Of a stretch of DNA of 61,408 bases, positions 59-61,408 are shown one piece after another. The notes under the pieces are model-generated. The model did no database searches, was not told where the DNA came from, and saw only the letters and a list, made by a program, of their open reading frames with translations. Within the stretch, counting starts at the first letter, position 1; each line of letters opens with the position of its first letter. Source of the DNA: a virus (taxonomy: Duplodnaviria; Caudoviricetes). Made by a program: the position numbers and the translations under genes. The stretch lies in the IMG/VR virus record IMGVR_UViG_3300020392_000014, positions 1-61,408 of that record, one strand, 5' to 3'.

Positions 59-258
59 TGCTTTCAAAAAAAAAAAATAAAAAAGTAGAAAAAGCACATA
101 AAAAAATGGATCAAGCCTTGGCTGCTAGATTAGCTGGCAACGTAAAAAAAGGCGTGCGAAAAGGTAAAGCTGCACTTAGAAAAGGAGTAAAAGGAGGGGC
201 TATAAGTGTAGCAGACGCTAAAGTCATGAAGAAAGGTATTAAAAATGTTAAAGCATAA
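13..258 (+). CDS. Small Lys-rich basic protein, possibly 5'-truncated
   Basis: Frame is open back to base 1; TAATG coupling to the next gene. Confidence 0.75.
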   Translation: MAMKKKPKMAMKKKPMLSKKKNKKVEKAHKKMDQALAARLAGNVKKGVRKGKAALRKGVKGGAISVADAKVMKKGIKNVKA

Positions 259-18256: not shown

Positions 18257-20483
18257 ACTATTTACTACACTTCATGACGTGGTGCCTAAAAATGTTTTGT
18301 CAAGTAAAAACAAAGCAAAAACATGGCAATATGGATATAATGAAAAATATGATATTGTTGTTATTACAAAGTCAGGACAAATAAACGACATTATAAATAT
18401 AAATGGATTGAGAATTGCTTTACCTAAACAACCTAAAGATGTGTACAAAAGGTGTGACAAATCTGTAAATCAGTATTGGGAACCAAAAGTTTTACCGAAA
18501 GAATTAAAACGTATACAATCTATATTTCAATGGCATGAAACACCAGCAGCTTTTAAAAACAAATGGGTGGATTACATAGAGCAAGAGTTTGATAGAAGAG
18601 AAGATGGTTTTTGGTTTATGAATAATGGATTGCCTACTTACATTACAGGAACTCATTATATGTATTTACAGTGGACAAAAATAGATGTAGGACATCCTGA
18701 TTTTAGAGAAGCAAACAGAATATTTTATATTTACTGGGAAGCATGCAAAGCAGACAAAAGGTCTTTTGGTATGTGTTACTTAAAAATAAGACGTTCAGGC
18801 TTTTCTTTTATGAGTTCTTGCGAAGGAGTTAATACTGCAACCATAACAAAAGATGCAAGGGTTGGCATACTTTCAAAAACAGGTGCTGATGCAAAAAAAA
18901 TGTTTACTGATAAAATAGTACCTATAAGCAATAACTATCCATTCTTTTTTAAACCAATACAAGATGGTATGGATAAGCCAAAAACAGAATTAGCATATAG
19001 AGTTCCAGCATCAAAGATTACAAAAAAAAATATGTATGTGGTGGCAGAGAGTGAGCTTGAAGGCTTGGACACAACTATAGACTGGAAGAACACATCTGAC
19101 AATAGTTATGATGGTGAAAAACTACAGCTACTTATACATGATGAGAGTGGAAAATGGGAGCGACCAGAAAATATTTTAAACAACTGGCGTGTTACAAAAA
19201 CCTGTTTACGTTTGGGTAGTAAAGTTATAGGTAAATGTTTGATGGGTTCCACCTCTAACGCATTAGATAAAGGTGGTAAAAACTTTAAAGATTTATATGA
19301 ATCATCTTGGTGTATAAATAGAAATTCAAATGGACAAACTAAAAGTGGTTTGTATAATTTATTTATACCTATGGAATGGAACATGGAAGGATTTATAGAT
19401 AAGTATGGTATGCCAGTGTTCAAAACCCCTAGTAAATCTGTAGAAGGTATTGATGGAGAAGATATTTATCAAGGAGCTATTGATTATTGGGAAAACGAAG
19501 TAGAGTCACTAGCATCTGATCCTGATGCTTTAAACGAATTTTATAGACAGTTTCCAAGAAGTGAGTCACACGCATTTAGAGATGAAAGTAAACAATCTAT
19601 ATTTAATTTGACAAAAATATATCAACAAATAGATTACAATGATTCAATAAATATTGCACACCATGTAACCCAAGGAGGCTTTCATTGGAAAGATGGTATA
19701 AAAGATTCTAAGGTTATATGGAGCCCAAATAAAAGAGGAAGATTTTTTGTATCTTACATTCCTAAACCGACTCTACAAAATAATGTAATTTTGAAGAACG
19801 GTAAAAAATATCCAGGTAACGAGCATATAGGTTCATTTGGTTGTGACTCTTATGACATATCTGGGGTTGTAGTAGGTAGAGGATCAAATGGTGCGCTTCA
19901 TGGATTAACTAAGTTTAATATGGATGAAGCACCTAGTAATGAATTTTTTTTAGAATACATTGCTAGACCTCAAACTGCAGAAATATTTTTTGAAGAAGTG
20001 TTGATGGCTTGTGTGTTTTACGGCATGCCAATTTTGTGCGAGAACAACAAACCAAGATTGTTGTACCATTTTAAAAACAGAGGGTACAGAGGTTTTTGTT
20101 TGAATAGGCCAGATAAGACATATAACAAACTATCAAAAACAGAAAAGGAGTTGGGTGGTATACCTAACACCTCAGAAGATGTAAAACAATCTCACGCTTC
20201 GGCGATTGAGTCTTATATAGAAAAGCACGTAGGCTTTGACTTTGAGGGCACACACCGAAGTAAAGATGAAATAGGTAGAATGTATTTTCAGAAAACACTT
20301 GAAGATTGGGCAAAGTTTGATATATCCAACCGAACTAAGTTTGACGCTTCAATAAGCTCTGGATTAGCAATTATGGCAAATCAAAAACACTTGTATACTC
20401 CAATTCAAAAACAATCAAAAATAAGCATTAACTTTGCAAGATATAACAATACTAGCTCAGTGAGTCAATTAGTTAATAGATGA
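18234..20483 (+). CDS. terL: Terminase large subunit
   Basis: Walker A variant LKIRRSGFS, Walker B LLIHDESGK, MGST coupling motif, nuclease FGCDSYD. Confidence 0.9.
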   Translation: MQNQDQNKLFTTLHDVVPKNVLSSKNKAKTWQYGYNEKYDIVVITKSGQINDIININGLRIALPKQPKDVYKRCDKSVNQYWEPKVLPKELKRIQSIFQWHETPAAFKNKWVDYIEQEFDRREDGFWFMNNGLPTYITGTHYMYLQWTKIDVGHPDFREANRIFYIYWEACKADKRSFGMCYLKIRRSGFSFMSSCEGVNTATITKDARVGILSKTGADAKKMFTDKIVPISNNYPFFFKPIQDGMDKPKTELAYRVPASKITKKNMYVVAESELEGLDTTIDWKNTSDNSYDGEKLQLLIHDESGKWERPENILNNWRVTKTCLRLGSKVIGKCLMGSTSNALDKGGKNFKDLYESSWCINRNSNGQTKSGLYNLFIPMEWNMEGFIDKYGMPVFKTPSKSVEGIDGEDIYQGAIDYWENEVESLASDPDALNEFYRQFPRSESHAFRDESKQSIFNLTKIYQQIDYNDSINIAHHVTQGGFHWKDGIKDSKVIWSPNKRGRFFVSYIPKPTLQNNVILKNGKKYPGNEHIGSFGCDSYDISGVVVGRGSNGALHGLTKFNMDEAPSNEFFLEYIARPQTAEIFFEEVLMACVFYGMPILCENNKPRLLYHFKNRGYRGFCLNRPDKTYNKLSKTEKELGGIPNTSEDVKQSHASAIESYIEKHVGFDFEGTHRSKDEIGRMYFQKTLEDWAKFDISNRTKFDASISSGLAIMANQKHLYTPIQKQSKISINFARYNNTSSVSQLVNR

Positions 20484-22915
20484 AAGAAGTAGAAATAAAC
20501 ATTCAAGCTGCTGCCTTCCCTGATCAGTTTGCTTCCGACGCTGTAAAAGATACTGTAGAATATGGATTACAAATAGGGCAAGCTATACAATATGAATGGT
20601 TCAGAAGAGATAATGGCTCTTGTAGATTCTACAATCAATCAGCTGAGTTCATGCGCCTACGTCTGTACGCACGTGGGGAACAATCCATAGCAAAATATAA
20701 AAATGAATTAGCCATCGATGGAGATTTATCTTATTTAAATTTAGATTGGAACCCAGTGCCTATTATACCTAAGTTTGTTGACATAGTAGTTAACGGCATG
20801 TCTGACAGGTTATTTAAAGTAAATGCCTACGCTCAAGACGCTATGTCAGCAGAAAAAAGAAGTGAATTTCAAAAAGCTGTAGAGGGTGATATGATAGCAA
20901 AACCTTTATTCAATCAAATTGAATCTGATTTTGGTTTAAATGTTTTTACTACGCCTGAAGAGGATTTACCAGAAACAGATGAAGAAATGGAATTGTATAT
21001 GCAAATGAAATACAAACCAGCTATAGAAATTGCGGAAGAAGAAGCTATAAATACTTTGTTTGATGAAAATCACTATAACGACATCAGAAGTAGAGTGGAT
21101 TATGATATAACCACATTAGGTATCGGAATAACAAAACATCAGTTTTTGGCTGGACAAGGGGTAGTGATAGATTATGTAGACCCTGCGAATGTAGTGTACA
21201 GTTACACAGAAGACCCGTATTTCAAAGATTGTTTTTATTGGGGTGAAATTAAAACAGTCCCTATGACTGAGCTCATTAAAATTGACCCCACACTTACAAA
21301 TGAAGATTTAGACCAAATATCCAAATACAGTCAATCATGGTATAATTATTACAACAATCAGCAGTTTTTTGAGAACAGTATGTTTTATAGAGACACAGCT
21401 ACAATATTATATTTTAATTATAAAACCACACATTCTTTTGTTTATAAAAGAAAAAAATTAGCTGATGGTTCATACAAGACAGTAGAAAAAGACGATCAAT
21501 TTAATCCACCTGCCGAAATGATGGAAGAAGGAAACTTTGAAAGGGTTGAGAAAAAAATTGATGTATGGTATGATGGTATTATGGTTATGGGAACAAATAT
21601 AATGTTGAAGTGGGAACTTTCAGAAAATATGGTTAGACCAAAGTCGGCAAATCAGTTTGCTATGCCTAACTACATAGCATGTGCACCCAGAATGTATAAA
21701 GGTGTTTTTGAAAGTTTAGTAAAAAGAATGATTCCTTTTGCGGACTTAATACAAATGACACATTTAAAAATTCAACAAGTTGTAGCACGAGTTGTACCAG
21801 ATGGTGTATTTATAGATGCTGATGGATTGAACGAGGTAGATTTAGGTACTGGTAATGCTTACAATCCTGAAGACGCACTAAGATTATATTTTCAAACAGG
21901 TAGTGTTGTAGGAAGAAGCTATACACAAGATGGCGAGTTTAATAATGCAAGAGTGCCTATTCAACAGCTTACGGCTAATAGTGGAGCAGGAAAAATGCAA
22001 ATGTTGATTCAAAACTATAATCATTATTTAGATATGATAAGAGCAGTTACAGGATTAAATGAAGCTCGTGATGGTTCTACACCAGATCCAAACTCTTTAG
22101 TTGGTGTACAAAAGTTAGCAGCACTAAATAGTAACACAGCCACTAGACATATATTAGAAGGCAGCTTGTACATTACTCGTACATTAGCAGAATGCCTATC
22201 AATTAGAACTGCTGATATATTAGAGTTTGCAGATTTTAAAGATGAATTTGCTATGCAGATAGGTAAATATAATTTAAAAATATTAGAAGATATAAAAGAA
22301 TTGTATATATACGATTTCGGAATATTTATTGAGCTTTCACCGGATGAAGAAGAAAAAGCTTTACTAGAACAAAATATACAAATGGCTTTATCTAAACAAG
22401 ATATAAGTTTAGAGGATGCAATAGATATAAGAGAAATGCACAATTTGAAAATGGCTAATCAGTTGTTAAAACTTAAACGTAAACAAAAACAGGAAAGAGA
22501 GCAGCAAGCCAAAATGCAAGAACAACAAATGGCTGCTCAAATGCAAATGCAAGCAGAACAAGCAAAAGCACAGGGAGAAGCTCAAAAAATACAAATGGAG
22601 TCTCAAGCCAAGATACAATATAGACAGGCAGATGTAGCTTTTGAAATAGAAAAGCTGAAAGCAGAAGCTGAATTAAAAAGAAATTTAATGGCAACTGAAT
22701 TTCAGTTTCAAATGCAAATTAAAGGTGTAGAGCAAGCTGGGATAAGTCAAAGAGATAAAAATAAAGAAAAAGCAAAAGACGATAGAATAAGTCAACAATC
22801 TACACAACAATCAAAATTGATAGAACAAAGAAAGAATAATCTACCATCGATAAACTTTGAATCGAATGAAGACAGTTTGGATGGTTTTGATTTGGCTGAA
22901 TTTGAACCTAGGTAA
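20480..22915 (+). CDS. Portal protein
   Basis: 811 aa directly after TerL; PIIPKFVDIVV; Q-rich C-terminal coiled coil as in P22-type portals. Confidence 0.85.
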   Translation: MKEVEINIQAAAFPDQFASDAVKDTVEYGLQIGQAIQYEWFRRDNGSCRFYNQSAEFMRLRLYARGEQSIAKYKNELAIDGDLSYLNLDWNPVPIIPKFVDIVVNGMSDRLFKVNAYAQDAMSAEKRSEFQKAVEGDMIAKPLFNQIESDFGLNVFTTPEEDLPETDEEMELYMQMKYKPAIEIAEEEAINTLFDENHYNDIRSRVDYDITTLGIGITKHQFLAGQGVVIDYVDPANVVYSYTEDPYFKDCFYWGEIKTVPMTELIKIDPTLTNEDLDQISKYSQSWYNYYNNQQFFENSMFYRDTATILYFNYKTTHSFVYKRKKLADGSYKTVEKDDQFNPPAEMMEEGNFERVEKKIDVWYDGIMVMGTNIMLKWELSENMVRPKSANQFAMPNYIACAPRMYKGVFESLVKRMIPFADLIQMTHLKIQQVVARVVPDGVFIDADGLNEVDLGTGNAYNPEDALRLYFQTGSVVGRSYTQDGEFNNARVPIQQLTANSGAGKMQMLIQNYNHYLDMIRAVTGLNEARDGSTPDPNSLVGVQKLAALNSNTATRHILEGSLYITRTLAECLSIRTADILEFADFKDEFAMQIGKYNLKILEDIKELYIYDFGIFIELSPDEEEKALLEQNIQMALSKQDISLEDAIDIREMHNLKMANQLLKLKRKQKQEREQQAKMQEQQMAAQMQMQAEQAKAQGEAQKIQMESQAKIQYRQADVAFEIEKLKAEAELKRNLMATEFQFQMQIKGVEQAGISQRDKNKEKAKDDRISQQSTQQSKLIEQRKNNLPSINFESNEDSLDGFDLAEFEPR

Positions 22916-23495: not shown

Positions 23496-24632
23496 ATGGA
23501 AATAAAAGTAAAAGACATAGGCTTGTCTGAAGAAAAGTCTAAAGCAGAAATTGAACAAGAACTTCTTGAAAAGCATGAAGAGAAGTTTGAAGACTCTCAA
23601 GCAGAACCTGAAAAGGTTGAGGCAACAGAAGTGAAAGAAGAAAAGAAAGAGGAACCTGTAGCCGAAGAAGTGAATGAAGAAAAAGCTCCCTCGTCAGAGT
23701 TAAGTGACGAAGACGTTCTTACATATATTAAAAATAGGTATGACAAGGAGATAACTTCAGTAGATGATTTGTTAGCTGAAAAAGAATCAGCTCCCGAATT
23801 ACCTGAAGACGTTTCAATGTATTTGAAATACAAACAAGAAACGGGCCGTGGTATTGAAGATTTCTATAAAACACAAAGAGATTTTGACACCATGGATGAT
23901 GATTCTTTGATAGCTGAATATATAGCATATAACGAAGAAGGGTTAGATGCAATAGATATTCAAGATATTATGGACGATAAATTTGGTTTTGATGAAGAAC
24001 TAGATGAGCCCAAAGATATTAAAAGAAAAAAACTATCAAAGAAACGTGAGCTTGCAAAAGCAAGAAAATTTTTGAACGAACAAAAGGATAAGTATAAAGT
24101 TCCGCTTGAGTCAAGTGGGGATGGATTATCTGCAGATCAACAAGAAAATTTAGATGCTTACAAGAAATATATCGACGAATCTAATACTATTAAGGAAGCA
24201 GCAGAAAAGCGCTATGATTATTTTCTAACGAAAACTAAAGAAGTTTTTAATAGTGATTTCAAAGGTTTTGATTTTACTTTAGGAGAAAATAAATATACCT
24301 ATAAGCCTGGCACTTTTGAAGAGCTATCTAATACTCAGTCCGACATAAATAATTTTGTCAAAAAATACACTGATGAAAATGGCTTAATGAAAGATGCAGC
24401 TGGTTATCATAAAGCTTTATCTGTAGCGATGAACCCTGAAAAGTTTGCGCAATACTTTTTTGACCAAGGTGTTTCCTCAGCCGTAGATAATGTTACAAAA
24501 AAATCAAAAAACATTAATATGGAAATGAGACAATCACCGCAAGTTACAATAAAAGATGGGCGTAAAATCAGAAGCATTGGCAACCAAAGTAGCGGAAGAG
24601 GACTCAAAATTAGAAGTATTAAAAAAAGTTAA
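23496..24632 (+). CDS. Capsid scaffolding protein
   Basis: Very acidic and helical with a basic C-terminal tail; immediately upstream of the capsid gene. Confidence 0.7.
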   Translation: MEIKVKDIGLSEEKSKAEIEQELLEKHEEKFEDSQAEPEKVEATEVKEEKKEEPVAEEVNEEKAPSSELSDEDVLTYIKNRYDKEITSVDDLLAEKESAPELPEDVSMYLKYKQETGRGIEDFYKTQRDFDTMDDDSLIAEYIAYNEEGLDAIDIQDIMDDKFGFDEELDEPKDIKRKKLSKKRELAKARKFLNEQKDKYKVPLESSGDGLSADQQENLDAYKKYIDESNTIKEAAEKRYDYFLTKTKEVFNSDFKGFDFTLGENKYTYKPGTFEELSNTQSDINNFVKKYTDENGLMKDAAGYHKALSVAMNPEKFAQYFFDQGVSSAVDNVTKKSKNINMEMRQSPQVTIKDGRKIRSIGNQSSGRGLKIRSIKKS

Positions 24633-37114: not shown

Positions 37115-38968
37115 ATGGCAGTTGATCCAAGTAAATATCAAATATATGCCGAGAAAGATTTAAACAGAGCTCAAATAGATTGGGGCACAGTAGGTAAAAC
37201 GTTATCTGATGGTTTAATAAGTATAGCAAAAGACAGAGAGGCAAGAAAACAACAGATTGCGGATGACACTGTTGATGCTATGAATAAATTAAGTGAAGTT
37301 CCTGATGTTAATAATCAGACTTTATCTAAAATGATTATTGATGGTAGCGACCAATCTAAACAAGAGCTTCAAGCAAGAATGGATTTAGTTAGGCGTGGTA
37401 TTATAAAGCCAAAAGATTACAAGCTTTTTATGAACGCTCAACAAAATGGATACAAAAGCCTTAGCACTGTAGTTCAAAATTACGATAAGTATTACACTGC
37501 AAAAATGGAGGCTATTGAAGCAGATACACAATCTAAACTAGATGCAGCCGTAGCAAAAAGTGTTGAACAGTTTGGTAATATAAATAACAAAGTATTATGG
37601 ACAAATCCTGTAAATGGTCAATTACAACTTGTCACAATGGAACAAGACGAAGATGGTAATTACACCAAAATGCCAGATCCAAACAAGAATCCCGAAAAGT
37701 TTCAAAATCCAAACACCATAAACACAATAATGCGTTTCAATGAAAAAAAGAAAGTATTACAGGATGAAGCAAAAAAGGTAACAGATACTATTGCATCATA
37801 TATAAGATCATCTGTTAATAACGGTGTTGTGAAAAAGACAAAAGATTTTAGGGATCAATTAATTGGAGGTAAGACGTATGATGAATGGATGAAAAGCCAA
37901 ATAGGTTTTTTGACCGCAACAGATAATGATGTAGCTCAGATATTGTCTAATTCAGGCGAGTATACATTTACATTTTCTAAAGAAGAGGCAGATAAAGACC
38001 CTAGTAAAATATTTGTTGACAATTCTTCTGGTAAACCTGTTTTAAGTATTTCTGACAAAGCAAAAGAAAGAGCTGAACAGTTAGCTAGAGAAGCTATTGA
38101 CTCTCAAATAGACAGCGAGATAACTAAAACTCCTGGATTTGACCCGCAAAGAAGTTCAGCCGCAGATGATAGGGATAAGAAAGATAGAGGAAAAAGAATC
38201 ATGGCCACCCTTAATAATTTAAGAGGTGCACAAACACCTGAACAAATGAGGCTTGCTGTTCAAGAGCTACAAGGTATTACAGGTTTAAGATTTAAAGATA
38301 TAGAAGAGATAAGAGAAGAGGTAACAATAAATGGTCAAAACAAAACAATAACTACTGGTGTAAACTTAAATCTTGACGGAACAGTTATACCTATGAGGTT
38401 TGGAGAAATTGATCCAGACACAGGAGAGTTTAAACCGACCACCGGAGCGGAATTTGCACAAGCTAATTATGAATATTTAGCTGACGATAAAGCTAGCACA
38501 GCTGATATTGCTTTAAAAGAATTTGGTGGCTCAGATAAATTCTTTAAAGATGTATCATTCGATCTTGAAAAAGGAACTAGAAATTTGAGTTATGGAACTA
38601 AAGGTAGTGTAGAATTTAATAAACCCTATAACTCAGGAGGTAAATCAACTAGTTTAAAAGATCAAATAATTAAAGCTTATACGGATGCAGACGATGCTTC
38701 TTTTGATATCAACCCTCTTGCGCCAGGAGTTGACATGACTGTATTAAAAAATAGTACCGAATCGGCGATTAGATCGGCATTTGAAGGACAAGGATTTAGT
38801 GTACCTAAAGGCTTTAAAGTTACTGATGATGGTAGAGATTTAGTAATTGAGGGTGTAGATAAATTAGGTGTTCCAGTAAAAATAAAAGCAAAAGATATAG
38901 GAAGCGTATCTACCGGCGTATCAGCACTAGAAGCTGCTGTTCAACAATTTATATCTAAATTTAATTAA
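37115..38968 (+). CDS. Internal virion / ejection protein 2
   Basis: 617-aa helical protein in the podovirus ejectosome position. Confidence 0.6.
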   Translation: MAVDPSKYQIYAEKDLNRAQIDWGTVGKTLSDGLISIAKDREARKQQIADDTVDAMNKLSEVPDVNNQTLSKMIIDGSDQSKQELQARMDLVRRGIIKPKDYKLFMNAQQNGYKSLSTVVQNYDKYYTAKMEAIEADTQSKLDAAVAKSVEQFGNINNKVLWTNPVNGQLQLVTMEQDEDGNYTKMPDPNKNPEKFQNPNTINTIMRFNEKKKVLQDEAKKVTDTIASYIRSSVNNGVVKKTKDFRDQLIGGKTYDEWMKSQIGFLTATDNDVAQILSNSGEYTFTFSKEEADKDPSKIFVDNSSGKPVLSISDKAKERAEQLAREAIDSQIDSEITKTPGFDPQRSSAADDRDKKDRGKRIMATLNNLRGAQTPEQMRLAVQELQGITGLRFKDIEEIREEVTINGQNKTITTGVNLNLDGTVIPMRFGEIDPDTGEFKPTTGAEFAQANYEYLADDKASTADIALKEFGGSDKFFKDVSFDLEKGTRNLSYGTKGSVEFNKPYNSGGKSTSLKDQIIKAYTDADDASFDINPLAPGVDMTVLKNSTESAIRSAFEGQGFSVPKGFKVTDDGRDLVIEGVDKLGVPVKIKAKDIGSVSTGVSALEAAVQQFISKFN

Positions 38969-41900
38969 TGAATAAATATAAAACACCATCAGGAGATGTT
39001 CTTACAGAAGAAGAATTAAGGTCAAGATACGGCGACCAATTTGATTCTTTGGTCGCAGACGGTGTATTGACTTTGGTAGAAGGAGAAGAGGCTGAAAAAA
39101 AAAATCCAGTCGTTACCTCAGGTTCAGATTCGGAGCAGGAAAATACGGTTTCCACTACAAATCTAAACAATACTCCTGGGTTTTCGGATTCTTCCGATCC
39201 CATAGAAATAAATGAAGATGTAAACTTTGATATAAGTCTTCCAAAAAATCAACAAACTCTAGTTGAAAATAAAAGTAATTTAGATATATTAAACTCCATT
39301 GGATTTTTTGACGATAACAAACCTGAGATGGTTGTTTTGGATGAAAAAAATCAAACCAAAGAAAAATCATATCAAATTAAAGACCCAATTACAGGAGAAT
39401 TTAATTTAAAAAAAGAGTCGGAAATACCTGAGCCTGTATTGAAAGCTATAAAACTGCATGAAAAAGCTAATCCAAAAGTTGTAGATACTGAAGAGGTTAT
39501 AATTACCGAAGAAGATTACACTAATCCTGATAAAGTTGACTCAAAAATTTTATCTCAAAATAATATAGATGAAGAAGATTATTTAAAGTGGGAGAAAAAA
39601 AATATTAGACCTGAAGGTTCTGTTTATAAATTTTTAAAAACTCTTTTACCTAGTGATGAAGGTAATCAATATGAAATGGAAAAAAGGCAGTATGAAAAAT
39701 TACAGTCTTATAATGCTTCAAAACTAAATAATATTACTAGTGCACTTTCCGCAAATGAAGCAGCACAAAAATTAACAACTAATCCAAATGATATTAGAAG
39801 ATTAAGATTAGAGGCGGTAAATTTAAAAAAAGAATTTATGGAAACTTACTCCACAATGGAGTCAGCGATAAATTTATTTCCGGTTTATAAAGAAGAAGAA
39901 ATAGATTCTGATTTGAGAAAAAGAAAAGAACTTTATCAAGCAGTTAAATCAGGAGGATTAAGGGAGTTTACGGGGGGAGGTTTAGAATTATTGAAAACAG
40001 GAGCTACAGCTTTGACTTCTTTTGCTGGTAATTTTATAGGCGGGATACCTGGAGCTGTCGATCAAAGACTAACAAAATTTGGATACAATAAAAAAGGTCT
40101 ACTTGCCGGTTTAAGTGATATGTTTGTAGACTCTAGTGAAGCTATTGAAACAGAAATAGGTGAAACACAAAGACCAGCTTTTTTAGAAGGCAAACCTGTA
40201 ACTTATAATTCACAAGAATTTATAGTTGATGCAAACGGGACAGTGTACGATGCAAAATCCAATATTCGAATGGATGGAATATTACCTGACAGTGAGATAA
40301 AAACAATAATAAACAGATCAAAAGATGTCCCCAATAGCACTATTAATTGGACAGGAGGTTCAGTATTGACAGGCGGTGTAAATACTTTGATGAATTTATT
40401 TGCTCTTATACGAACTGGAGGTAAGGTTAATAAATCAACTGGCCTTGAAAAGATTTTTAAACCTGGTACTGCAGGAAAAGTTGGAATGGGAGTAGCATCT
40501 TTTACAAGCGGGGTAGTGAGTAATGTTGAAGACATACGAAGTCAGTTGGTAGCAACTGGTATGGGTGAGAATGAAGCAATGGAAATAGCTGTTGATGCTG
40601 GCCAAGCTATAGCAACTTTAGATGGTATATTTTCTGGTATAGCTGGTAGTAACGAACAGTTATTAATTGGTTTCCAAGGTATTAAAGATCAAGTAAAAAA
40701 TTTAGCAATTAAAGAAGGAAAAAAGTTTACAAAAAAACAACTAGTGGACAAAGGAATTGCTTTAGGTAAAGAAAACTTTAAAGAATTATTTGTTGAAGAA
40801 TTGCCTGTTTATTTTACAGAAAAAGCAATTAATAATTTAGTTAATCAAAAGGTTGGGAATACAGTATTAGACCAGAAAATTACAGCAGCTGGTGTTTTAG
40901 AAACTGCAGTAATGACTATAGGGGCTACATCTACACTAGGTTCTAAAAATTTATTAACAGGTAACAAAAGAAAAGACTTAGTAAGAACACTAGCTTCTGA
41001 TGTTCAAGATTTGCAAAAAACATTAAATGTTTTAGTAACAGAAGGTTCTTTAAACAAAGAACAAGCTGCGAATGCTTATACAGAGATTTATAACATGAAA
41101 GCAGCTGAACTAAAAACTAAAGGGACTGTTAAAATGTCTAAAAATGTTGAAGAAGCCTCGGACTTGTTAACGCAAAGGCAAAATCTTATAGAACAAAGAG
41201 AAGGTTTAGAAGGGCCATTAAAAGAAGAGTTAGATAAAAGAATTGAGGATGTAGATGCTCAAATAAAAAAATTACAACAAAGAGATATTACAGAAGCACA
41301 GTCTATTATAGATAAACAAAAAGATAGTAAAGATAAAGTCGAAGTTACAAGAGAGGAAGCTGTTCAGGCTTTCAAGGCTGAAAATGAATTTAGGGTAAAA
41401 GCTGGATTACCTGTTCTTATAGAATCAGAACAAAATATTACAAAAAAACAAAATGAATTAATTAAAGATAAACAAGATGCCATTCAAAAGTCAAGCACAG
41501 AGAAAGTGGATGTACAAGAACAATCCACAGATGGCCAAACGGTGGGAGAAAGAGACACCGAAGGGGCCGTTACCCAACAGGGTAAAAAAGAAACCGAAGA
41601 TGTCCTTGTTGAAAGCAAGGAGGCGGAAGTAACACCAGTTAGGGAAAAAATTGATCAACCTTTTCAGGTACCCAATTCAAGAATTGATGTAACATTAAAT
41701 CAAGATGGTACGGCAAAAGTGTACAAAAGGGGTACAAATCAAACTGTTAAATATGTTCCACAAAAAGCTAGTAAATATATTTTAACAGATGTAATTGATG
41801 TAAACGAAGGTAATCTAGCTACTATACCTGAAGGCACACCGGAAGGAGATGTTTTTATAGAAATTGCTGACACATCAAATAATGTTTATGAAGTTGTGCA

Positions 41901-44900
41901 AGCTATAAAACAAGTAGAGGATAGTATGGTAGATGCGGAAATGGAAACTGCTGAAGGGGGTATATTTAATATATTACAATTAAAGTTCACTCCTGAAAGC
42001 TGGAAGCGTATAACTGGTGTATCGCCAAAAGAATCTGGCGTTTCTAATTTTTGGATAAGTAAAAAGGATGGAGTAAGTATAGAGGACGGATGGGTTGATG
42101 TGGCTCCTGAATTAAGTATAGATATGGTTATTGATTTTATCGAATCTAATCCTACTTTAGCGGATGTAAAAAATTTACAAAAAGGAGGCCTTAGTCAAGA
42201 TTTAGTGGCTTTAAAACAAAGATTTAAGGAGTTAACAGGTTTAAGTGCAACAAAGTTTAATCTAAATACAGTTTTATCTATCGACCCAAATAGAGAGCCG
42301 TTGAGAGTAACAGAAACAAGAAATGTAGAGCAATTAACTAGAGAGTCTCTTGACCCTAATGTAGATGACTTTGGGAAAAAGAAAGGGCCATCAGCAGAAA
42401 AAATTACAGGTAAAAAAATAAAGAAAGTCAAAGTAGATGAACAGTCTGCATTGAAAGACCAGATAAGATTAGAAGCTAAAGCAGCAAGAGATGCAAAAAA
42501 AGATCAAACCAAAAGACGAAGAGGTTTAGTAAAATCTATAAAAGGTTTGTTGAAAGAAGGTAATATTACAAACAAAAAAGCTTTATCATTGATAAAAAAA
42601 GTTTCTAATGTAAACTTAAATAACGCAAAAAAAGTGCAAGACGTTATTGATTTTATAGAGAAATCTTTAAACGATTCTTCTTATTCTGCAAAACTTTCAA
42701 AAGCTAATGCTTTGATTAAGTCTATCAAAAAAAATTTAAAAGGTAAAGAAGCTGCAATGTCTGATTCAGCAAAACAGTTTGTGTTAATAGACCCTAATAC
42801 AGTAGAGAATATAGACACATATCTAAATTTTGCAGAAAACATTAAAAATGGTTTAATGAAAACCAAAAGGACAGGTAAGGGGGTAAAAATATCAAAACCT
42901 TTTGATGTCAAAAAAGTTGACGCATATAGTAAAAAACAAATTGACTTACAAAACAAAAGAAATTATGAGTTGGCTAAAGAATCGTTTGAGTTACTTACGG
43001 GATTAGAAGCTGGAGAGTTAACGTTAGACGAAATGAAAGAAGCTTTGTATGATATAGAAGGTGAAGCTAATGATCCTGGCAAAAAATCAGAGCTGTTAGC
43101 AAAAAACAAAGAAGCGGTTATAGATAAGGCTATTAAAAATGCATTTCAAAATACTAAAATAAATATTAAGGGTAGTATAGAAGCTGGAGATGTAGAGTTA
43201 AATAAAGAAAAAAAAGAATTAATTCGTGATTTTTTAAACATGGACTTAAAATTACTCAGCACGGCTCAAAAGATGGCTGCCTTAGACTCCATAATTAATT
43301 TTGAAATAAATGAATCGACAGGCGGCATGGAGTCTATACTTAGGCAATATGTTGGGAATAAAAACATGATTAAGATGAATAATGAAAACATCAAATCATC
43401 TTTAAAAAGCACATGGCTAGGAAGGATGTGGAATAAACATTTATCGACATTGCCAAATGTTTTTGAATTAATGTTTGCTTCACAGGAAAAAGCAAGAAAG
43501 ATAACTAAAGCACTTGGTCTTGATGGGGTAATAGATGGTTATGCTAAAGCAGAGAAAGAAGCAAATGATGTAGAGCAAGATTATGCTAATGTTTTTGCAA
43601 AAAAGAAAATGAAAAACGGTATTTACTTCGATGAGATGAATGACCTAGAAAGAGGGGTGTTGGCAGAGGTTAGAAGATTTACACCAGGTACGGAAGTAGA
43701 ACAGCAAAACGAGTTTGATGTAAGTAAAAAATTAATAGATCAAACAATAAAAAGACTAGAAGCTTCTAAAGATTCTAACGATAAAGCAAAAGCTGAAAAG
43801 CTAAGGGCAGTATATGATAATATATTAAAAGATTCAAACAATATAAGTGAAGTAGAATCTAAAGTTGACCCTGTAAATTTAGAAGGAGTAGAATATGTTA
43901 CTCAAATTTGGGCAAACAAATATCAAGATTTAGCTGACACTTCTTTAAATGTCTATAATAGAAATTTAGGAAAAGACATTAACTATACTCCTAGAAGCGT
44001 ACAAACATTAACTCAAGAGGACAAAACACCTGACATCACTGAACCTGTATTTAATCCAGAAAATCTTTCTAAAAGCCCTTATGATAAGGAGACTGGAGTT
44101 TTGAAGGTAGCCACAAAGCCACCTACTTTACCAGAGGGCAAAGTTTTAAATTTAGGCTTTGATAGACAAAATTTAAGCAATTATAAAGCAGCTTTAACAG
44201 ATATATATACCGCTCCTTCTATACAGCAAATTAAAGGTGCGCAACAATCAGAATATTTTAAAGAAGTATTTCCTAATGAAAACGCAAGAGATATAGTAAA
44301 TCTGAGAATAAAAAATTATGTAGACTCAAAAAGGGGAAAAAGGTTTTTTAACGCAAAAGATAAAATAGCTCTTGACGCTATGAACAAATTAGCCACTATG
44401 GGTGTAGTAAAAGCTTTAGGTGGTGTAACTCAACCGTTTAAACAAATTGTACCTATATTCAACACTAGTATTAACGCTGGCCCCATCAATACAATTAAAG
44501 GTGTGGAACTATATCTTTTTAATCCTGATGCTAGAAAAGCAATAGATAATTCTGGGTTAGCCATAGCTAATAGAGGTATAAAAGCTCAATCTGATTTGGA
44601 GTCTGTTGATAGCAGAATAGATAATACTACTCGAACTAAAGGTGGTAAATTATTAAAAGCGTATGATAACTTAAATAAAACAATTTTGCAAAAAACTTTA
44701 GTTGATCCTGATGTAGGCACTGCTAAAGCATCATTTTTAGCATACTATATTCAAGCGATGGACAAAAAGGGTGTGAGTTTAAATGAAATAGACTGGACGC
44801 AACCCTTAGAGAAAGACGAATCTCGTTTTGCTCAACAACAGGTTGATAGACAACAGAACACTTCTGACCAAGATTTGCAAGGAGATTTGTTTACCAGTCA

Positions 44901-45756
44901 GGCATTAACAAAACAAACTATAAGAAAAGTATTATTTCCTTTTGCAAATTTTTTATTGAATCAAAAAACTAGAATGTATTCTGATATTAACACATTGTTT
45001 AGAAACCCCACTGCTTTACCTGGGGACAAGACCGCCGCACTTAAATCTTTAGCTGGTTTAGGTGTAGAAAATGCTACATTCAATGCTATAGGTTTAGGTA
45101 TATCTGCCATGCTAGCTAACACAGTATCATCTTTGATTGGTATGGATGAAGAGGAAGAGGGAACCTTTTCTGAAAAAATAGAAAAAATAAGAGAAGCAGA
45201 AAGGAAAAGACTACAAAATCAAATAATTGGTAGAGGCGGCAATCTTATAGCTGATATAGTTTCACCGCTTCCTTTTTTAAACGATGAGGTTTTATCAGTA
45301 ACAAATTCCTTAGTCGGTTTATTTCAAGATGGAGGTAAAGATGATTTTAAGTTTTTTGTAAATACCAACAGAGGGTTGAGTGAACAGTTAGGGGTATTAG
45401 GAATAGGTGGAGAAAAATTACAAAGACTAACAGAGATGATTAGAATAGCTCAGACGGGTGAGGTAACAACTGAGTATGGCGGTAAAAAAAGTACCAAAAA
45501 ACTGACAAAAGATGCTCAAAATAAAATTCAAAATGTAGCAGTGGTTTATGCTTTATTTATAGCAGGTGGAATACCATTCTCTGAAGTGGGGTATATGTCT
45601 GAAAAAGCACTTAGAGACTTGAAAAAAAGAAAACAACCAGGGCCTAAAAAATTTAAAGAGGAGAAAAAAACTTCATTGTCTTTAAAAGGAAAAGGAAAAT
45701 TAGAAAGCGGTGCTTTAAATAAAAAAAATAATAAATTACAAAAAGGTAGATTGTGA
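38968..45756 (+). CDS. Large internal virion protein (2262 aa)
   Basis: Last large late gene; helical with Gly/Ala-rich hydrophobic segments; no recognisable RNAP motif. Confidence 0.7.
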   Translation: MNKYKTPSGDVLTEEELRSRYGDQFDSLVADGVLTLVEGEEAEKKNPVVTSGSDSEQENTVSTTNLNNTPGFSDSSDPIEINEDVNFDISLPKNQQTLVENKSNLDILNSIGFFDDNKPEMVVLDEKNQTKEKSYQIKDPITGEFNLKKESEIPEPVLKAIKLHEKANPKVVDTEEVIITEEDYTNPDKVDSKILSQNNIDEEDYLKWEKKNIRPEGSVYKFLKTLLPSDEGNQYEMEKRQYEKLQSYNASKLNNITSALSANEAAQKLTTNPNDIRRLRLEAVNLKKEFMETYSTMESAINLFPVYKEEEIDSDLRKRKELYQAVKSGGLREFTGGGLELLKTGATALTSFAGNFIGGIPGAVDQRLTKFGYNKKGLLAGLSDMFVDSSEAIETEIGETQRPAFLEGKPVTYNSQEFIVDANGTVYDAKSNIRMDGILPDSEIKTIINRSKDVPNSTINWTGGSVLTGGVNTLMNLFALIRTGGKVNKSTGLEKIFKPGTAGKVGMGVASFTSGVVSNVEDIRSQLVATGMGENEAMEIAVDAGQAIATLDGIFSGIAGSNEQLLIGFQGIKDQVKNLAIKEGKKFTKKQLVDKGIALGKENFKELFVEELPVYFTEKAINNLVNQKVGNTVLDQKITAAGVLETAVMTIGATSTLGSKNLLTGNKRKDLVRTLASDVQDLQKTLNVLVTEGSLNKEQAANAYTEIYNMKAAELKTKGTVKMSKNVEEASDLLTQRQNLIEQREGLEGPLKEELDKRIEDVDAQIKKLQQRDITEAQSIIDKQKDSKDKVEVTREEAVQAFKAENEFRVKAGLPVLIESEQNITKKQNELIKDKQDAIQKSSTEKVDVQEQSTDGQTVGERDTEGAVTQQGKKETEDVLVESKEAEVTPVREKIDQPFQVPNSRIDVTLNQDGTAKVYKRGTNQTVKYVPQKASKYILTDVIDVNEGNLATIPEGTPEGDVFIEIADTSNNVYEVVQAIKQVEDSMVDAEMETAEGGIFNILQLKFTPESWKRITGVSPKESGVSNFWISKKDGVSIEDGWVDVAPELSIDMVIDFIESNPTLADVKNLQKGGLSQDLVALKQRFKELTGLSATKFNLNTVLSIDPNREPLRVTETRNVEQLTRESLDPNVDDFGKKKGPSAEKITGKKIKKVKVDEQSALKDQIRLEAKAARDAKKDQTKRRRGLVKSIKGLLKEGNITNKKALSLIKKVSNVNLNNAKKVQDVIDFIEKSLNDSSYSAKLSKANALIKSIKKNLKGKEAAMSDSAKQFVLIDPNTVENIDTYLNFAENIKNGLMKTKRTGKGVKISKPFDVKKVDAYSKKQIDLQNKRNYELAKESFELLTGLEAGELTLDEMKEALYDIEGEANDPGKKSELLAKNKEAVIDKAIKNAFQNTKINIKGSIEAGDVELNKEKKELIRDFLNMDLKLLSTAQKMAALDSIINFEINESTGGMESILRQYVGNKNMIKMNNENIKSSLKSTWLGRMWNKHLSTLPNVFELMFASQEKARKITKALGLDGVIDGYAKAEKEANDVEQDYANVFAKKKMKNGIYFDEMNDLERGVLAEVRRFTPGTEVEQQNEFDVSKKLIDQTIKRLEASKDSNDKAKAEKLRAVYDNILKDSNNISEVESKVDPVNLEGVEYVTQIWANKYQDLADTSLNVYNRNLGKDINYTPRSVQTLTQEDKTPDITEPVFNPENLSKSPYDKETGVLKVATKPPTLPEGKVLNLGFDRQNLSNYKAALTDIYTAPSIQQIKGAQQSEYFKEVFPNENARDIVNLRIKNYVDSKRGKRFFNAKDKIALDAMNKLATMGVVKALGGVTQPFKQIVPIFNTSINAGPINTIKGVELYLFNPDARKAIDNSGLAIANRGIKAQSDLESVDSRIDNTTRTKGGKLLKAYDNLNKTILQKTLVDPDVGTAKASFLAYYIQAMDKKGVSLNEIDWTQPLEKDESRFAQQQVDRQQNTSDQDLQGDLFTSQALTKQTIRKVLFPFANFLLNQKTRMYSDINTLFRNPTALPGDKTAALKSLAGLGVENATFNAIGLGISAMLANTVSSLIGMDEEEEGTFSEKIEKIREAERKRLQNQIIGRGGNLIADIVSPLPFLNDEVLSVTNSLVGLFQDGGKDDFKFFVNTNRGLSEQLGVLGIGGEKLQRLTEMIRIAQTGEVTTEYGGKKSTKKLTKDAQNKIQNVAVVYALFIAGGIPFSEVGYMSEKALRDLKKRKQPGPKKFKEEKKTSLSLKGKGKLESGALNKKNNKLQKGRL
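39095..39215 (+). other. Candidate programmed -1 frameshift / slippage site (A10) and trans-frame extension
   Basis: A10 at 39095-39104; the -1 frame reads KSSRYLRFRFGAGKYGFHYKSKQYSWVFGFFRSHRNK-stop. Confidence 0.5.
41477..41632 (+). CDS. Nested +1-frame 51-aa basic protein MPFKSQAQRKWMYKNNPQMAKRWEKETPKGPLPNRVKKKPKMSLLKARRRK
   Basis: ATG to TAA inside the 2262-aa gene; A/T-rich leader with A at -3; local GC rise; resembles free-standing small phage proteins as recalled. Confidence 0.7.
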   Translation: MPFKSQAQRKWMYKNNPQMAKRWEKETPKGPLPNRVKKKPKMSLLKARRRK

Positions 45757-46016
45757 TGAAGTTTTTTGATGAACATACCTGTATGCTCCATAGTTACTAT
45801 GTTTTAACCAACAAAGTTCCTTACGAAACATTACTAGAAAAAGGTAGTAGTGTGGCTTTGATATTTAATCCTACTAAACCTGTAATAGCTATGGATGATG
45901 ATGTTTATGATGTGCTGATTGAATATTTTGAACAAGAAGAAGATTATGAAAAATGTCAAGAGCTACTTGATTGCAAAAAAATTAACATGCACTTTAAAAA
46001 AAGTGAGTTAGTCTAG
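45753..46016 (+). CDS. Small protein with UVR-like C-terminal motif
   Basis: EYFEQEEDYEKCQEL; overlaps the 3' end of the convergent gene. Confidence 0.55.
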   Translation: MMKFFDEHTCMLHSYYVLTNKVPYETLLEKGSSVALIFNPTKPVIAMDDDVYDVLIEYFEQEEDYEKCQELLDCKKINMHFKKSELV

Positions 46017-60201: not shown

Positions 60202-61408
60202 ATGAACAACAAAGGTTATATACCCAAAGACCTCACATTTGACCAGGAGGGTCGAGATAAACTTATATCCGGCATATCGTCCATATCCAAAGCTGTGAAG
60301 AGCACACTTGGCCCGAGAGGTCGCACTGTATTAATAGAATCATCAGACCATCTTCAGGGAATTACTGTAACAAAAGACGGAGTAACCGTAGCAAACTCTA
60401 TATATCTTGACGATCCAATAGAAAACCTAGCAATACAAATGATGAAGGATGCAGCTTCACGGACTGCAGCTTCGGCTGGTGATGGCACGACTACTGCAAT
60501 AGTATTAACTGAAGCGATTGTCAAATGCGGTCTCAAAGAATTAGAGTTTGAAGATGATTGTAACATAACAGAAATAATAAAACACATAAATAAAGAAATA
60601 CAAGTTATATTAGAAGTGTTGCATAAAAAATCAAAACCAGTAAATGATAACACATTGAACCATGTAGCTACGATATCAGCAAACAATGACAAAGAGATTG
60701 GTGATATAATTACAGAAGCCTACAATAAGGTTGGTAAAGATGGTGTGGTTACGGTTGAGAAAAGTATGAATCATGAAACGTATGCAGAAGTGACTAACGG
60801 TATTAAAATAGATAGAGGCTATACGTCTAATTTATTTTTAAACAACCAACGTAAGGATGAGTGCGTGCTTGAAGATGTTTCTGTTCTAGTTTGTGATCAG
60901 GAGATAAATAATATTTTGCAAATAGAAAATGTTCTCAAACCAATCATTCAACAAAACAAAAAACTTTTACTTATAGCTCCGTGTTCGCAAAACGTTATAA
61001 ACACACTAGCAGCAAATGTTGTGAGAAATGGTTTGAAGCTTTGCAATATAGTACCGCCATCGTTTGGTTACAAGACACACGAGCTTATGTCAGACATAGC
61101 GGTTGCTATAGGTGCAAAATTTTATTCAGAAAAAACTGGAGACGATTTAAGTCTGCTAAACATTACAGACCTTGGACATGTGGATAAAATAATTGTTGGA
61201 AAAGAAAGTTCAGTGCTAATTAAAAACGACCAGGTGAATGAAGATGTAACAAAAAGAATCGAAGAGCTGAAAGAACAAGCTGAAAACACAGTAAAAAAAC
61301 CAGACAAGGATTTTATAAACGAAAGGATAGCTAGCCTAGCCGGAGCTATTGGGTGTATATATGTAGGTGGTAATAGTGATGTTGAGCAAAAAGAAAAATA
61401 CGATAGAG
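60202..61408 (+). CDS. groEL: Chaperonin GroEL (3'-truncated by the window; not in ORF track)
   Basis: AVKSTLGPRGRTV, ITVTKDGVTVA, AGDGTTTA, VATISANND, DRGY; frame open to the window end. Confidence 0.95.
   Translation, partial: MNNKGYIPKDLTFDQEGRDKLISGISSISKAVKSTLGPRGRTVLIESSDHLQGITVTKDGVTVANSIYLDDPIENLAIQMMKDAASRTAASAGDGTTTAIVLTEAIVKCGLKELEFEDDCNITEIIKHINKEIQVILEVLHKKSKPVNDNTLNHVATISANNDKEIGDIITEAYNKVGKDGVVTVEKSMNHETYAEVTNGIKIDRGYTSNLFLNNQRKDECVLEDVSVLVCDQEINNILQIENVLKPIIQQNKKLLLIAPCSQNVINTLAANVVRNGLKLCNIVPPSFGYKTHELMSDIAVAIGAKFYSEKTGDDLSLLNITDLGHVDKIIVGKESSVLIKNDQVNEDVTKRIEELKEQAENTVKKPDKDFINERIASLAGAIGCIYVGGNSDVEQKEKYDR

What the first reader, a model, noticed from the sequence alone, without database searches (positions are those of the whole stretch)
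41477..41632. Complete small basic gene nested in the +1 frame of the 2262-aa virion protein
Seen: ATG 41477 to TAA 41632 encodes MPFKSQAQRKWMYKNNPQMAKRWEKETPKGPLPNRVKKKPKMSLLKARRRK. It follows the leader gaattaattaaagataaacaag, which has A at -3 like the other starts in this genome. Hand-counted GC is about 47%, against 25% at 41401-41460. The host frame is a Q/E/T/S linker (DAIQKSSTEKVDVQEQ...). The peptide begins MPFK like ORF 375 and contains KKKPKM like the repeat in ORF 13. Recalled but not searched: MPFKSxAQRxWM...MAKRW...TP peptides occur as free-standing genes in aquatic phages. Inference: a captured gene overprinted by the ejection protein, giving this gene three coding layers together with the A10 site.
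Basis: partly seen in the sequence, partly recalled or inferred. Interest (0 to 1): 0.85.

Follow-up and report, generated by a model that had tools for sequence, protein, structure and literature searches.

The report
Conserved small gene nested in giant phage gene
A complete 51-codon gene for a small basic phage protein sits out of frame inside the gene for a 2262-residue virion protein, and comparison with dozens of related phages shows that both reading frames are kept by selection, a rare and so far undescribed case of a gene within a gene in a tailed phage.

Summary
ORF 41477-41632 (+) is a complete 51-codon gene. It lies one base out of frame inside the 2262-codon last gene of the structural module of a 61-kb phage genome.

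- **Family:** its product belongs to a large family of small basic phage proteins, phrog_1375 (function unknown). A profile search found 3,971 representative clusters. Members stand alone or form the extreme N-terminus of longer proteins.
- **Recurrence:** the 80 viral contigs kept were those most like the window's peptide. In 35 of them the gene is nested in a >1000-codon ORF, in 14 in a ~390-codon gene between portal and capsid genes, always in the same relative frame. It is free-standing in 25 and fused in frame in 6. Flavobacterium elemo phages also carry it nested.
- **Selection:** in six sets of related giant genes, diversity at the host frame's third codon positions falls from 0.30-0.58 in the flanks to 0.07-0.17 within the overlap. 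Variation there follows the nested frame's codon positions.
- **Start signal:** the ATG is kept in all 37 nested cases and is preceded by an A-rich, Shine-Dalgarno-free leader typical of this genome.

A conserved -1 frameshift was tested and rejected. The peptide's function is unknown; my guess is a role in the virion or in delivery. No expression data were examined.

The parts
41477..41632 (+). Nested small gene: 51 codons plus TAA. Predicted product has two short helices (residues 6-15 and 17-26) followed by a Lys/Arg-rich tail.
   Evidence: ORF and translation. Homologues at E down to 4e-13. Family alignment with invariant M1 P2 F3 K4 S5 Q8 P17 A20 W23 K25 E26 T27 P28 among 24 sequences. 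AF2 model with pLDDT 78. Codon-position pattern and synonymous-site suppression in relatives.
41452..41476 (+). A-rich leader of the nested gene with no Shine-Dalgarno motif, written in Lys/Gln/Asn/Glu/Asp codons of the host frame.
   Evidence: A = 0.60 and GC = 0.16 here. The 28 ATG-start genes of the window average A 0.47 and GC 0.19, and only 3 of 28 have an SD-like motif. Only 8 of 130 ATG triplets in the host gene have A >= 0.60 upstream. In 34 distinct nested relatives the same 25 nt average A 0.57, against 0.37 for the host ORF.
38968..45756 (+). Host gene: 2262-codon ORF, the last + strand gene of the structural module. Presumed internal/ejected virion protein.
   Evidence: Upstream lie the portal (phrog_6547) and virion structural protein PHROGs. 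The host protein itself has no Pfam or PHROG match. A 1608-aa orthologue without a nested gene was found in L087.
41476..41634 (+). Host-frame codons 837-889 that overlap the nested gene: an acidic linker rich in Q/E/S/T/D/G.
   Evidence: The host-frame alignment of relatives shows a conserved block that begins exactly at the D/N-A codons holding the ATG, with flanks that cannot be aligned. By tblastn this block is the only part of the giant that matches in 19 of the 26 loci with any hit, and it is hit in 21 of the 26.

Best explanation
ORF 41477-41632 is a real, separately translated gene embedded in the +1 frame of the giant virion-protein gene.

Shown:
- It is a full-length member of an old, very widespread family of small basic phage proteins (phrog_1375).
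- In this phage lineage the same DNA also encodes a linker of the giant protein.
- Purifying selection acts on the peptide frame inside the host gene, and the host frame is kept open over it.

Inferred:
- Ribosomes start at the conserved internal ATG on the late structural mRNA, using an A-rich, SD-free leader of the kind this (probably Bacteroidota-infecting) phage uses for its other genes. They then make the 51-residue protein alongside the giant protein.
- The peptide frame is the older one. The giant protein's reading across it is the younger, tolerant linker.

More speculative (about 0.3):
- The protein is a virion- or delivery-associated module, a two-helix head with a basic tail, that works with packaged or ejected proteins or with the DNA.
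- Grounds: the gene always lies in head/neck/internal-protein modules. It often follows a giant gene directly, and its homologues form the N-terminus of proteins carrying polyvalent-protein domains.
For: (1) Homology. phmmer found 147 small proteins, the best at E = 4e-13. A profile of 121 of them found 3,971 representative clusters at E<=1e-3 and 834 at <=1e-10. 16 of 24 family members match phrog_1375, best E 3.7e-7.

(2) Recurrence. The 80 viral loci kept were the best 80 of 457 confirmed, ranked by likeness to the window's peptide, so they are enriched for its kind.
- 35 are nested in >1000-codon ORFs.
- 14 are nested in ~390-codon ORFs.
- All 49 use the same relative frame.
- 25 are not nested and 6 are fused in frame at an N-terminus.
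- The elemo phages are also nested.
- 4 of 74 loci from MAG contigs are nested.

(3) Selection on the peptide frame.
- Over 28 core codons of 35 distinct nested copies, diversity at peptide codon positions 1/2/3 is 0.207/0.143/0.341.
- Host-frame third-position diversity, upstream flank/overlap/downstream flank, in six sets of related giants: 0.302/0.069/0.375; 0.451/0.123/0.413; 0.562/0.109/0.555; 0.522/0.153/0.525; 0.411/0.166/0.583; 0.510/0.113/0.436. Set B shares 4 loci with set A.

(4) Extra constraint from the host frame.
- Peptide third positions vary less in nested copies than in free ones (0.341 vs 0.537) at equal protein identity (0.743 vs 0.737).
- The host frame is open across the whole ORF in 36 of 36 distinct nested copies, against 1 of 24 free ones. 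This count is partly circular, because the classes were defined by that openness.

(5) Own start.
- The ATG is present in all 37 nested cases.
- The peptide frame is closed 0-32 codons upstream, and in L012 and L019 a TAA lies immediately before the ATG.
- The leader is A-rich.

(6) Link to virion proteins.
- L087 has an orthologue of the giant (35% identity over 1068 columns, plus the N-terminus) with no nested gene. There the small gene follows directly, stop and start sharing one base.
- L052, L056 and L059 likewise follow ORFs of 1233 to 1998 or more codons.
- Homologues form residues 1-45/50 of proteins with InPase (E 3.7e-45) and SAM-lyase/DUF3293 domains. In the passages I read, Iyer et al. 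2017 (PMC5512222) assign InPase to virion-packaged polyvalent proteins.
Against: - I examined no transcript, ribosome or protein data, so translation of the nested ORF is inferred from evolution alone.
- The window's own peptide matches phrog_1375 only at E = 0.19 and matches no Pfam family.
- The peptide tree (41 columns) is unresolved. The number of independent nesting events is unknown, and many nested loci may descend from one ancestor.
- Counts of nested against free copies come from the 80 loci most similar to the window's peptide, so they do not give the frequency in the whole family.
- The giant gene has no recognised domain, so 'ejection protein' is an inference.
- No function can be read from the fold. 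There is no PDB match, and the only BFVD matches are uncharacterised homologues.
Confidence: 0.8

Rival explanations
1. The nested ORF is an untranslated relic. A small gene was swallowed by the giant ORF, and its sequence persists only because the host-frame linker or the nucleotide sequence is conserved.
For: No expression data were examined. The host-frame block (DAIQ-E/K-SS ... VDVQE ... VGEGD) looks conserved across relatives. Many nested loci may share one ancestor.
Against: - Variation follows the peptide frame, not the host frame. Host third positions are about the least variable (0.07-0.17) and host first positions the most variable in the overlap.
- ATG and ORF integrity are kept in 37 of 37 nested cases, although ORF length varies from 42 to 67 codons.
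- Protein identity among nested copies equals that among free-standing copies.
- The conserved host-frame block starts exactly at the ATG.
Confidence: 0.08
2. The ORF is the start of a second, long product. Ribosomes begin at the internal ATG and shift -1 at the A_AAA_AAG heptamer (41584-41590, codons 36-38 of the peptide frame) into the host frame. This would give the C-terminal 1370 residues of the giant protein an N-terminal module like that of the in-frame fused homologues.
For: The heptamer is present in the window in the right phase, and a -1 shift leads into the host frame. In-frame fusions of the module to long proteins exist: L010 has 1495 aa, and 31 of the 150 best representatives exceed 200 aa.
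Against: A slippery heptamer in the peptide frame is present in only 3 of 37 nested loci, against 6 of 25 free-standing ones. Nested ORFs end in their own conserved Arg/Lys-rich tail and stop codon. The C-terminal part of L010 has no likeness to any giant.
Confidence: 0.04
3. Chance ORF or a nucleotide-level signal. A purine-rich stretch with raised GC lacks stop codons in several frames, or it is conserved as an RNA or DNA element.
For: Two minus-strand frames are also open over the stretch in the window. GC is locally raised.
Against: Homology to free-standing proteins at E = 4e-13. The minus frames are open in only 0 to 7 of 36 relatives, and the other + frame in 2 of 36. Codon periodicity follows the peptide frame.
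Confidence: 0.02

Closest known systems
Embedded spanin genes Rz1 within Rz of phage lambda and relatives (recalled knowledge, not searched here)
   Same: A complete small gene with its own start lies in the +1 frame inside a larger same-strand gene of a tailed dsDNA phage. Related phages carry the two genes embedded, overlapped or separate.
   Different: Rz1 is a lipoprotein of the lysis cassette, and its partner is the very protein whose gene holds it. Here the host is a giant virion-protein gene (or a scaffold-position gene), and the nested product is a basic two-helix protein of unknown role. No partnership with the host protein is shown.
phrog_1375, a family of small phage proteins of unknown function
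   Same: 16 of 24 family members match it, best E 3.7e-7. They share the N-terminal MPFKS motif, a WEKETP-like motif and a basic tail.
   Different: The window's own peptide reaches only E = 0.19. The PHROG carries no note of nested copies. Annotated members such as Streptomyces phage FlowerPower gp48 are free-standing.
Polyvalent, virion-packaged effector proteins of phages (Iyer et al. 2017, PMC5512222; passages read)
   Same: The host gene is a giant protein at the end of the structural module. The elemo counterpart carries DUF3293. Homologues of the small protein form the N-terminus of proteins with InPase and SAM-lyase/DUF3293 domains.
   Different: The window's giant has no recognised domain. 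A term search of the main text found no occurrence of 'overlapping', but I did not read the whole paper or its supplements.
Overprinted genes of small viruses such as phiX174 B in A and E in D (recalled; reviews listed, of which I saw only titles and abstract starts)
   Same: Two proteins are read from one stretch of DNA. One frame is old and constrained. The other is younger and likely disordered.
   Different: Here the short nested frame is the old one and the long host frame is the newcomer across it. The genome is a 61-kb tailed phage, where size pressure is weaker.
Pfam DUF3008 (PF11450)
   Same: A small phage or bacterial protein that, as I recall, has a similar N-terminal motif. It appears as a weak lead in the ESM Atlas search: score 0.86, carried by 15% of one cluster.
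   Different: No Pfam match for the window's peptide or for 24 family members at E<=1.

Membership tests
MPFKS small basic phage protein family (phrog_1375) | Significant sequence match to family members over the conserved ~40-residue core | tested here: met
   phmmer E = 4e-13 to the best of 147 hits. Identity to 23 members is 49-74%.
MPFKS small basic phage protein family (phrog_1375) | Match to the PHROG profile itself | tested here: inconclusive
   The window's peptide reaches E = 0.19, while 16 of 24 relatives match at up to 3.7e-7.
MPFKS small basic phage protein family (phrog_1375) | Module begins at residue 1 with the MPFKS motif and is followed by a basic tail | tested here: met
   The motif is at residue 1 in 111 of the 150 best representatives.
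Same-strand embedded (out-of-frame) overlapping gene | Complete ORF with start and stop inside a longer ORF in another frame | tested here: met
Same-strand embedded (out-of-frame) overlapping gene | Purifying selection on the nested frame, seen as suppressed synonymous variation of the host frame | tested here: met
   Six sets of relatives show host third-position diversity of 0.07-0.17 in the overlap against 0.30-0.58 in the flanks. Codon periodicity follows the nested frame.
Same-strand embedded (out-of-frame) overlapping gene | Host frame also functional across the overlap | tested here: met
   Open in 36 of 36 distinct nested copies despite length changes. Upstream and downstream parts are in one frame in all of them. 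Peptide third positions are less variable than in free copies.
Same-strand embedded (out-of-frame) overlapping gene | Independent translation and a detectable product | not testable with these tools
   Only indirect evidence: a conserved ATG, an upstream stop in the nested frame, and an A-rich leader.
Programmed -1 ribosomal frameshift site | Slippery heptamer conserved in phase among relatives | tested here: not met
   Present in 3 of 37 nested loci.
Polyvalent / ejected virion protein (host gene) | Several effector or processing domains in one polypeptide | tested here: not met
   The 2262-aa protein has no Pfam or PHROG match. Only the elemo counterpart is annotated with DUF3293.
Polyvalent / ejected virion protein (host gene) | Encoded in the late structural module and packaged in the virion | tested here: inconclusive
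   Gene position fits. Packaging cannot be tested here.
Pfam DUF3008 | Match to the Pfam profile | tested here: not met

The most novel reading that the evidence does not exclude
The small gene may behave as a portable cassette that can live inside other genes. Its alternative frame can be made stop-free and then reads as a harmless acidic linker. So it has repeatedly come to lie, always in the same phase, in disordered stretches of unrelated virion genes. These are the giant ejected protein in the window's lineage and the scaffold-position gene in a sister lineage with the same portal and capsid families. In other relatives it sits free just after the giant gene or is fused in frame to delivered effector proteins. 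On this reading the product is a general virion-incorporation or DNA-escort module, and nesting ties its synthesis to that of the packaged protein.
Probability: 0.3. Interest if true: 0.85.

Novelty: new variant of a known kind. Interest (0 to 1): 0.7.

Why it matters
Out-of-frame genes fully inside other genes are accepted in small viruses. In tailed phages few are known beyond the spanins, and gene callers discard them by rule. The GenBank records of 68 elemo phages annotate only the giant 'structural protein' over this ORF.

This case rests on comparative evidence from many genomes. The nested frame is the old one and the giant protein is the newcomer across it. Two different host genes carry the same guest in the same phase.

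The case offers:
- a family that is missed wherever it is nested;
- a natural system, with a cultured phage-host pair, for studying internal initiation in bacteria that do not use Shine-Dalgarno sequences;
- a view of how overlaps arise;
- a lead on a very common but uncharacterised N-terminal module that is linked to virion-delivered proteins.

Tried and rejected
- **Pfam and PHROGs on the peptide and the giant.** Nothing useful beyond phrog_1375.
- **Nucleotide search.** A search with 2.2 kb around the site against cultured phages found no match.
- **tblastn with a free-standing member.** Against cultured phages it matched only seven Streptomyces phages, so the family is mainly known from uncultured contigs.
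- **Solved structures and fold searches.** No informative match.
- **ESM Atlas.** Only unnamed clusters, plus a weak DUF3008 lead.
- **Conserved -1 frameshift.** Rejected: the heptamer is present in 3 of 37 nested loci.
- **Giant as a fusion of two genes around the small gene.** Not supported for the window. The L087 orthologue has both the N-terminus and the C-terminal 1050 residues in one ORF without a nested gene, and its upstream 498-aa neighbour does not match the window's N-terminal half.
- **Homology of the 1495-aa fused protein of L010 to giants.** None beyond the module.
- **C-terminal parts of seven shorter fused forms.** No Pfam match above the curated cut-offs, and no PHROG other than phrog_1375.
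- **Peptide tree to count nesting events.** Too few columns, so it is unresolved. One origin of the giant-nested class is not excluded. At least two changes are forced for the ~390-codon class.
- **A decayed nested copy in the window's own scaffold-position gene (23496-24632).** The +1 frame there is full of stops and the likeness is low-complexity, so I make no claim.
- **Literature.** A full-text search for 'MPFKS' found nothing relevant. Searches on elemovirus/elemo, on overlapping genes in phages and on small phage genes listed no paper on this gene. For these I saw listings and abstract starts only. Supplements were closed and not consulted.
- **Not used.** I ran no complex prediction and no read-mapping, because neither could decide whether the ORF is translated.
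Full report
**What is there**

The window is a whole virus record of 61,408 bases, estimated 97% complete.

- The + strand carries a structural module. It holds the portal at 20480-22915 (phrog_6547, E 3e-147) and several 'virion structural protein' PHROGs up to 37111.
- The module ends with a 2262-codon ORF, 38968-45756. That ORF has no Pfam or PHROG match.
The host codon begins one base before the ATG.
- GC is 0.468 in the ORF and 0.250 at 41401-41460, against 0.327 for the host gene.
- It is the longest alternative-frame ORF in the host gene, 56 codons stop to stop against 39 for the next. That alone would not make it a gene.

**It is a member of a large protein family**

- A phmmer-type search found 147 proteins of 39-74 residues, the best at E = 4e-13 in 5.8 billion sequences.
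- Among 24 aligned members the invariant residues are M1 P2 F3 K4 S5 Q8 P17 A20 W23 K25 E26 T27 P28 L32, followed by a Lys-rich tail.
- A profile of 121 members, run against 1.84 billion cluster representatives, found 3,971 at E<=1e-3 and 834 at E<=1e-10.
- Of the 150 best representatives, 66 have at most 90 residues, 53 have 91-200 and 31 have more than 200. The motif is at residue 1 in 111 of them. The unit is therefore an N-terminal module that also exists alone.
- 16 of 24 members match phrog_1375 (function unknown, best E 3.7e-7). The window's own peptide reaches only E = 0.19. There is no Pfam family.
- AlphaFold2 with the alignment predicts helices at 6-15 and 17-26 and then an extended basic tail, with mean pLDDT 78.
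- PDB sequence and fold searches gave nothing. BFVD returned only uncharacterised homologues.

**The nesting recurs**

tblastn against cultured phages hit 68 Flavobacterium elemo phages under a giant 'structural protein' annotated with DUF3293. There a complete 42-codon ORF lies in the same +1 phase of the giant CDS.

A scan of IMG/VR confirmed 457 relatives and kept the 80 most similar to the window's peptide. I located each copy and measured the open frames that span it:

| Class | Loci of 80 |
|---|---|
| Nested in an ORF of more than 1000 codons | 35 |
| Nested in an ORF of ~385-400 codons | 14 |
| Not nested | 25 |
| In-frame N-terminus of a longer ORF (93 to 1495 codons; one cut by the contig end at 159) | 6 |

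- In all 49 nested cases the host codon starts one base before the ATG.
- Because the 80 were chosen by similarity to the window's peptide, these shares do not describe the whole family.
- Among 74 loci from genome and MAG contigs, 4 are nested in large ORFs (L088 2231 codons, L093 1759, L160 404, L110 339 or more). The rest are free or fused.
- MAG labels span many phyla. They may reflect mis-binned phage contigs, so I use them only to say that the family is widespread.

**Selection acts on the nested frame inside the host gene**

Over the 28 ungapped core codons of 35 distinct giant-nested copies:
- Mean pairwise diversity at peptide codon positions 1/2/3 is 0.207/0.143/0.341.
- Identity is 0.743 in the peptide frame and 0.570 in the host frame.

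I then made codon alignments of related giant genes in six sets (set B shares four loci with set A) and measured diversity by host codon position. Host third-position diversity was:

| Set | Upstream flank | Overlap | Downstream flank |
|---|---|---|---|
| A | 0.302 | 0.069 | 0.375 |
| B | 0.451 | 0.123 | 0.413 |
| C | 0.562 | 0.109 | 0.555 |
| D | 0.522 | 0.153 | 0.525 |
| E | 0.411 | 0.166 | 0.583 |
| F | 0.510 | 0.113 | 0.436 |

- Within the overlap the most variable host position is the first, which is the third position of the nested frame.
- Among 50-codon windows with at least 25 ungapped codons, the lowest values in every set are those that cover the nested ORF.
- This is the expected signature of a functional overlapping gene. 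It rules out conservation driven by the host frame alone.

**The host frame is kept as well**

- It is open across the whole nested ORF in 36 of 36 distinct giant-nested copies and 11 of 11 distinct copies of the ~390-codon class. It is open in 1 of 24 free copies. This count is partly circular, since openness defined the classes.
- The ORFs upstream and downstream are in phase in every case, even though the nested ORF varies from 42 to 67 codons.
- At equal protein identity (0.743 nested, 0.737 free), peptide third positions vary less in nested copies than in free ones (0.341 vs 0.537). That fits a second constraint.
- The host-frame alignment shows a conserved block that starts exactly at the D/N-A codons holding the ATG. 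Its flanks cannot be aligned and are of low complexity.
- With tblastn, this block is the only part of the window's giant that matches in 19 of the 26 loci with any hit, and it is hit in 21 of the 26.

**A separate start**

- All 37 nested cases have the ATG.
- The nested frame is closed 0-32 codons upstream. In L012 and L019 a TAA immediately precedes the ATG. Entry by frameshifting from the host frame is therefore not possible there.
- The 25 nt before the ATG average A = 0.57 in 34 distinct giant-nested copies, against 0.37 for their host ORFs. Only L030 has an SD-like motif within 20 nt.
- In the window the values are A = 0.60 and GC = 0.16. That resembles the leaders of its 28 ATG-start genes (A 0.47, GC 0.19, SD-like motif in 3 of 28). 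Only 8 of 130 ATG triplets in the giant gene have such an A-rich leader.
- That this phage infects Bacteroidota is an inference from these leaders, the low GC and the elemo relatives.

**Raised GC**

Giant-nested copies average GC 0.52 over their first 120 nt. Free-standing copies in AT-rich contigs mostly have 0.35-0.42, with values up to 0.50. The rise therefore looks like a cost of coding in two frames, for example Phe3 must be TTC because TTT would create TAA in the host frame. It does not look like a mark of foreign DNA.

**Where the gene sits in relatives**

- L087 holds the only clear orthologue of the window's giant: 35% identity over 1068 columns (q1171-2222), plus the N-terminus (q4-34). 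It has 1608 codons and no nested gene. The small gene follows it directly, with stop and start sharing one base.
- L052, L056 and L059 show the same order after ORFs of 1233 to 1998 or more codons.
- The ~390-codon hosts lie between a portal (phrog_6547) and a phrog_13704 protein, the same families as in the window. One of them is 36% identical (E 1e-59) to the window's own ORF 23496-24632.
- So within one phage group the guest is found in two unrelated host genes, or free.
- In Streptomyces phage FlowerPower the homologue (gp48) stands free between a 'peptidase' and the holin.
- The peptide tree is too short to count events.

**Function**

Nothing was measured. The clues are:
- constant residence in head, neck or internal-protein modules;
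- tight coupling to giant genes;
- in-frame fusion of the module to proteins with an InPase domain (E 3.7e-45) and a SAM-lyase/DUF3293 domain. In the passages I read, Iyer et al. [quoted passage not shown]

I therefore favour, at about 0.3, a virion-incorporation or DNA-associated role for the two-helix, basic-tailed protein.

**Rivals**

- A conserved -1 frameshift from the nested frame into the host frame is rejected. The window's A_AAA_AAG heptamer has counterparts in only 3 of 37 nested loci.
- An untranslated relic is contradicted by the codon-position pattern and by ORF integrity.
- Chance or a nucleotide signal is contradicted by the homology and the periodicity. The window's two minus-strand ORFs are not conserved.

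**Novelty**

Embedded out-of-frame genes are known in tailed phages: Rz1 in Rz, which I recall and did not search here. My searches found no description of this gene or of its nesting:
- 'MPFKS';
- elemovirus/elemo;
- overlapping genes in phages;
- small phage genes;
- a term search of the polyvalent-protein paper, which found 'overlapping' nowhere in the main text.

Except for the passages, I saw listings and abstract starts only. Supplements were closed. I rate it a new variant of a known kind.

**Limits**

- No expression evidence was examined.
- The sample of loci is biased toward the window's type.
- The sets are small (3-7 loci), and two of them overlap.
- The diversity measures are simple pairwise differences without a tree.

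Noticed in passing
Runs of nine or more A are not over-represented in the window: 16 matches found against 14.5 expected. I saw no link to the nested gene.
   Followed up: no
window 1-255 (+): An ORF at the very start of the window has tandem KKPKMAM-like repeats in an 85-codon open frame. The record may be circularly permuted, since ORF 60202-61407 runs off the other end.
   Followed up: no
L001 5605-5637 (elemo phage, NC_055853): A second, truncated copy of the nested gene's 5' end (10 codons starting with MPFKS, then a stop) lies 396 nt upstream of the full copy, in the same phase and with the same host-frame motif. It may be a duplication or recombination footprint.
   Followed up: partly
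window 23496-23760: The N-terminal acidic stretch of the window's scaffold-position protein aligns with the stretch that overlaps the nested gene in its L073 homologue. The +1 frame in the window is full of stops there. Whether it is a decayed former overlap cannot be decided.
   Followed up: partly
L116-L158 and others (MAG contigs, up to 1.09 Mb): A sister subfamily shares the same first ten residues but has a different middle (…KFAELLV…EEWNRETG…). It is common in contigs labelled Acidobacteriota, Gemmatimonadota and Vicinamibacterales, some of them very long, so probably prophages or cellular genes.
   Followed up: no
window 41484-41618 (-) and 41491-41658 (-): Two minus-strand ORFs of 44 and 55 codons overlap the nested gene. 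The corresponding frames are open in only 0 to 7 of 36 relatives, so they are by-products of composition.
   Followed up: yes
window 45753-46016 (+): An 87-codon GTG ORF overlaps the stop of the giant gene. This is the place where relatives such as L087 carry the free-standing small gene. It is not a homologue of the small gene, since the only match in the record is at 41477.
   Followed up: partly
window 38977-39069 and L087: Only the first ~35 residues and the last ~1050 residues of the giant protein are conserved between the window and its closest relative. The 1100-residue middle, which holds the nested gene, has been replaced or is very variable.
   Followed up: partly
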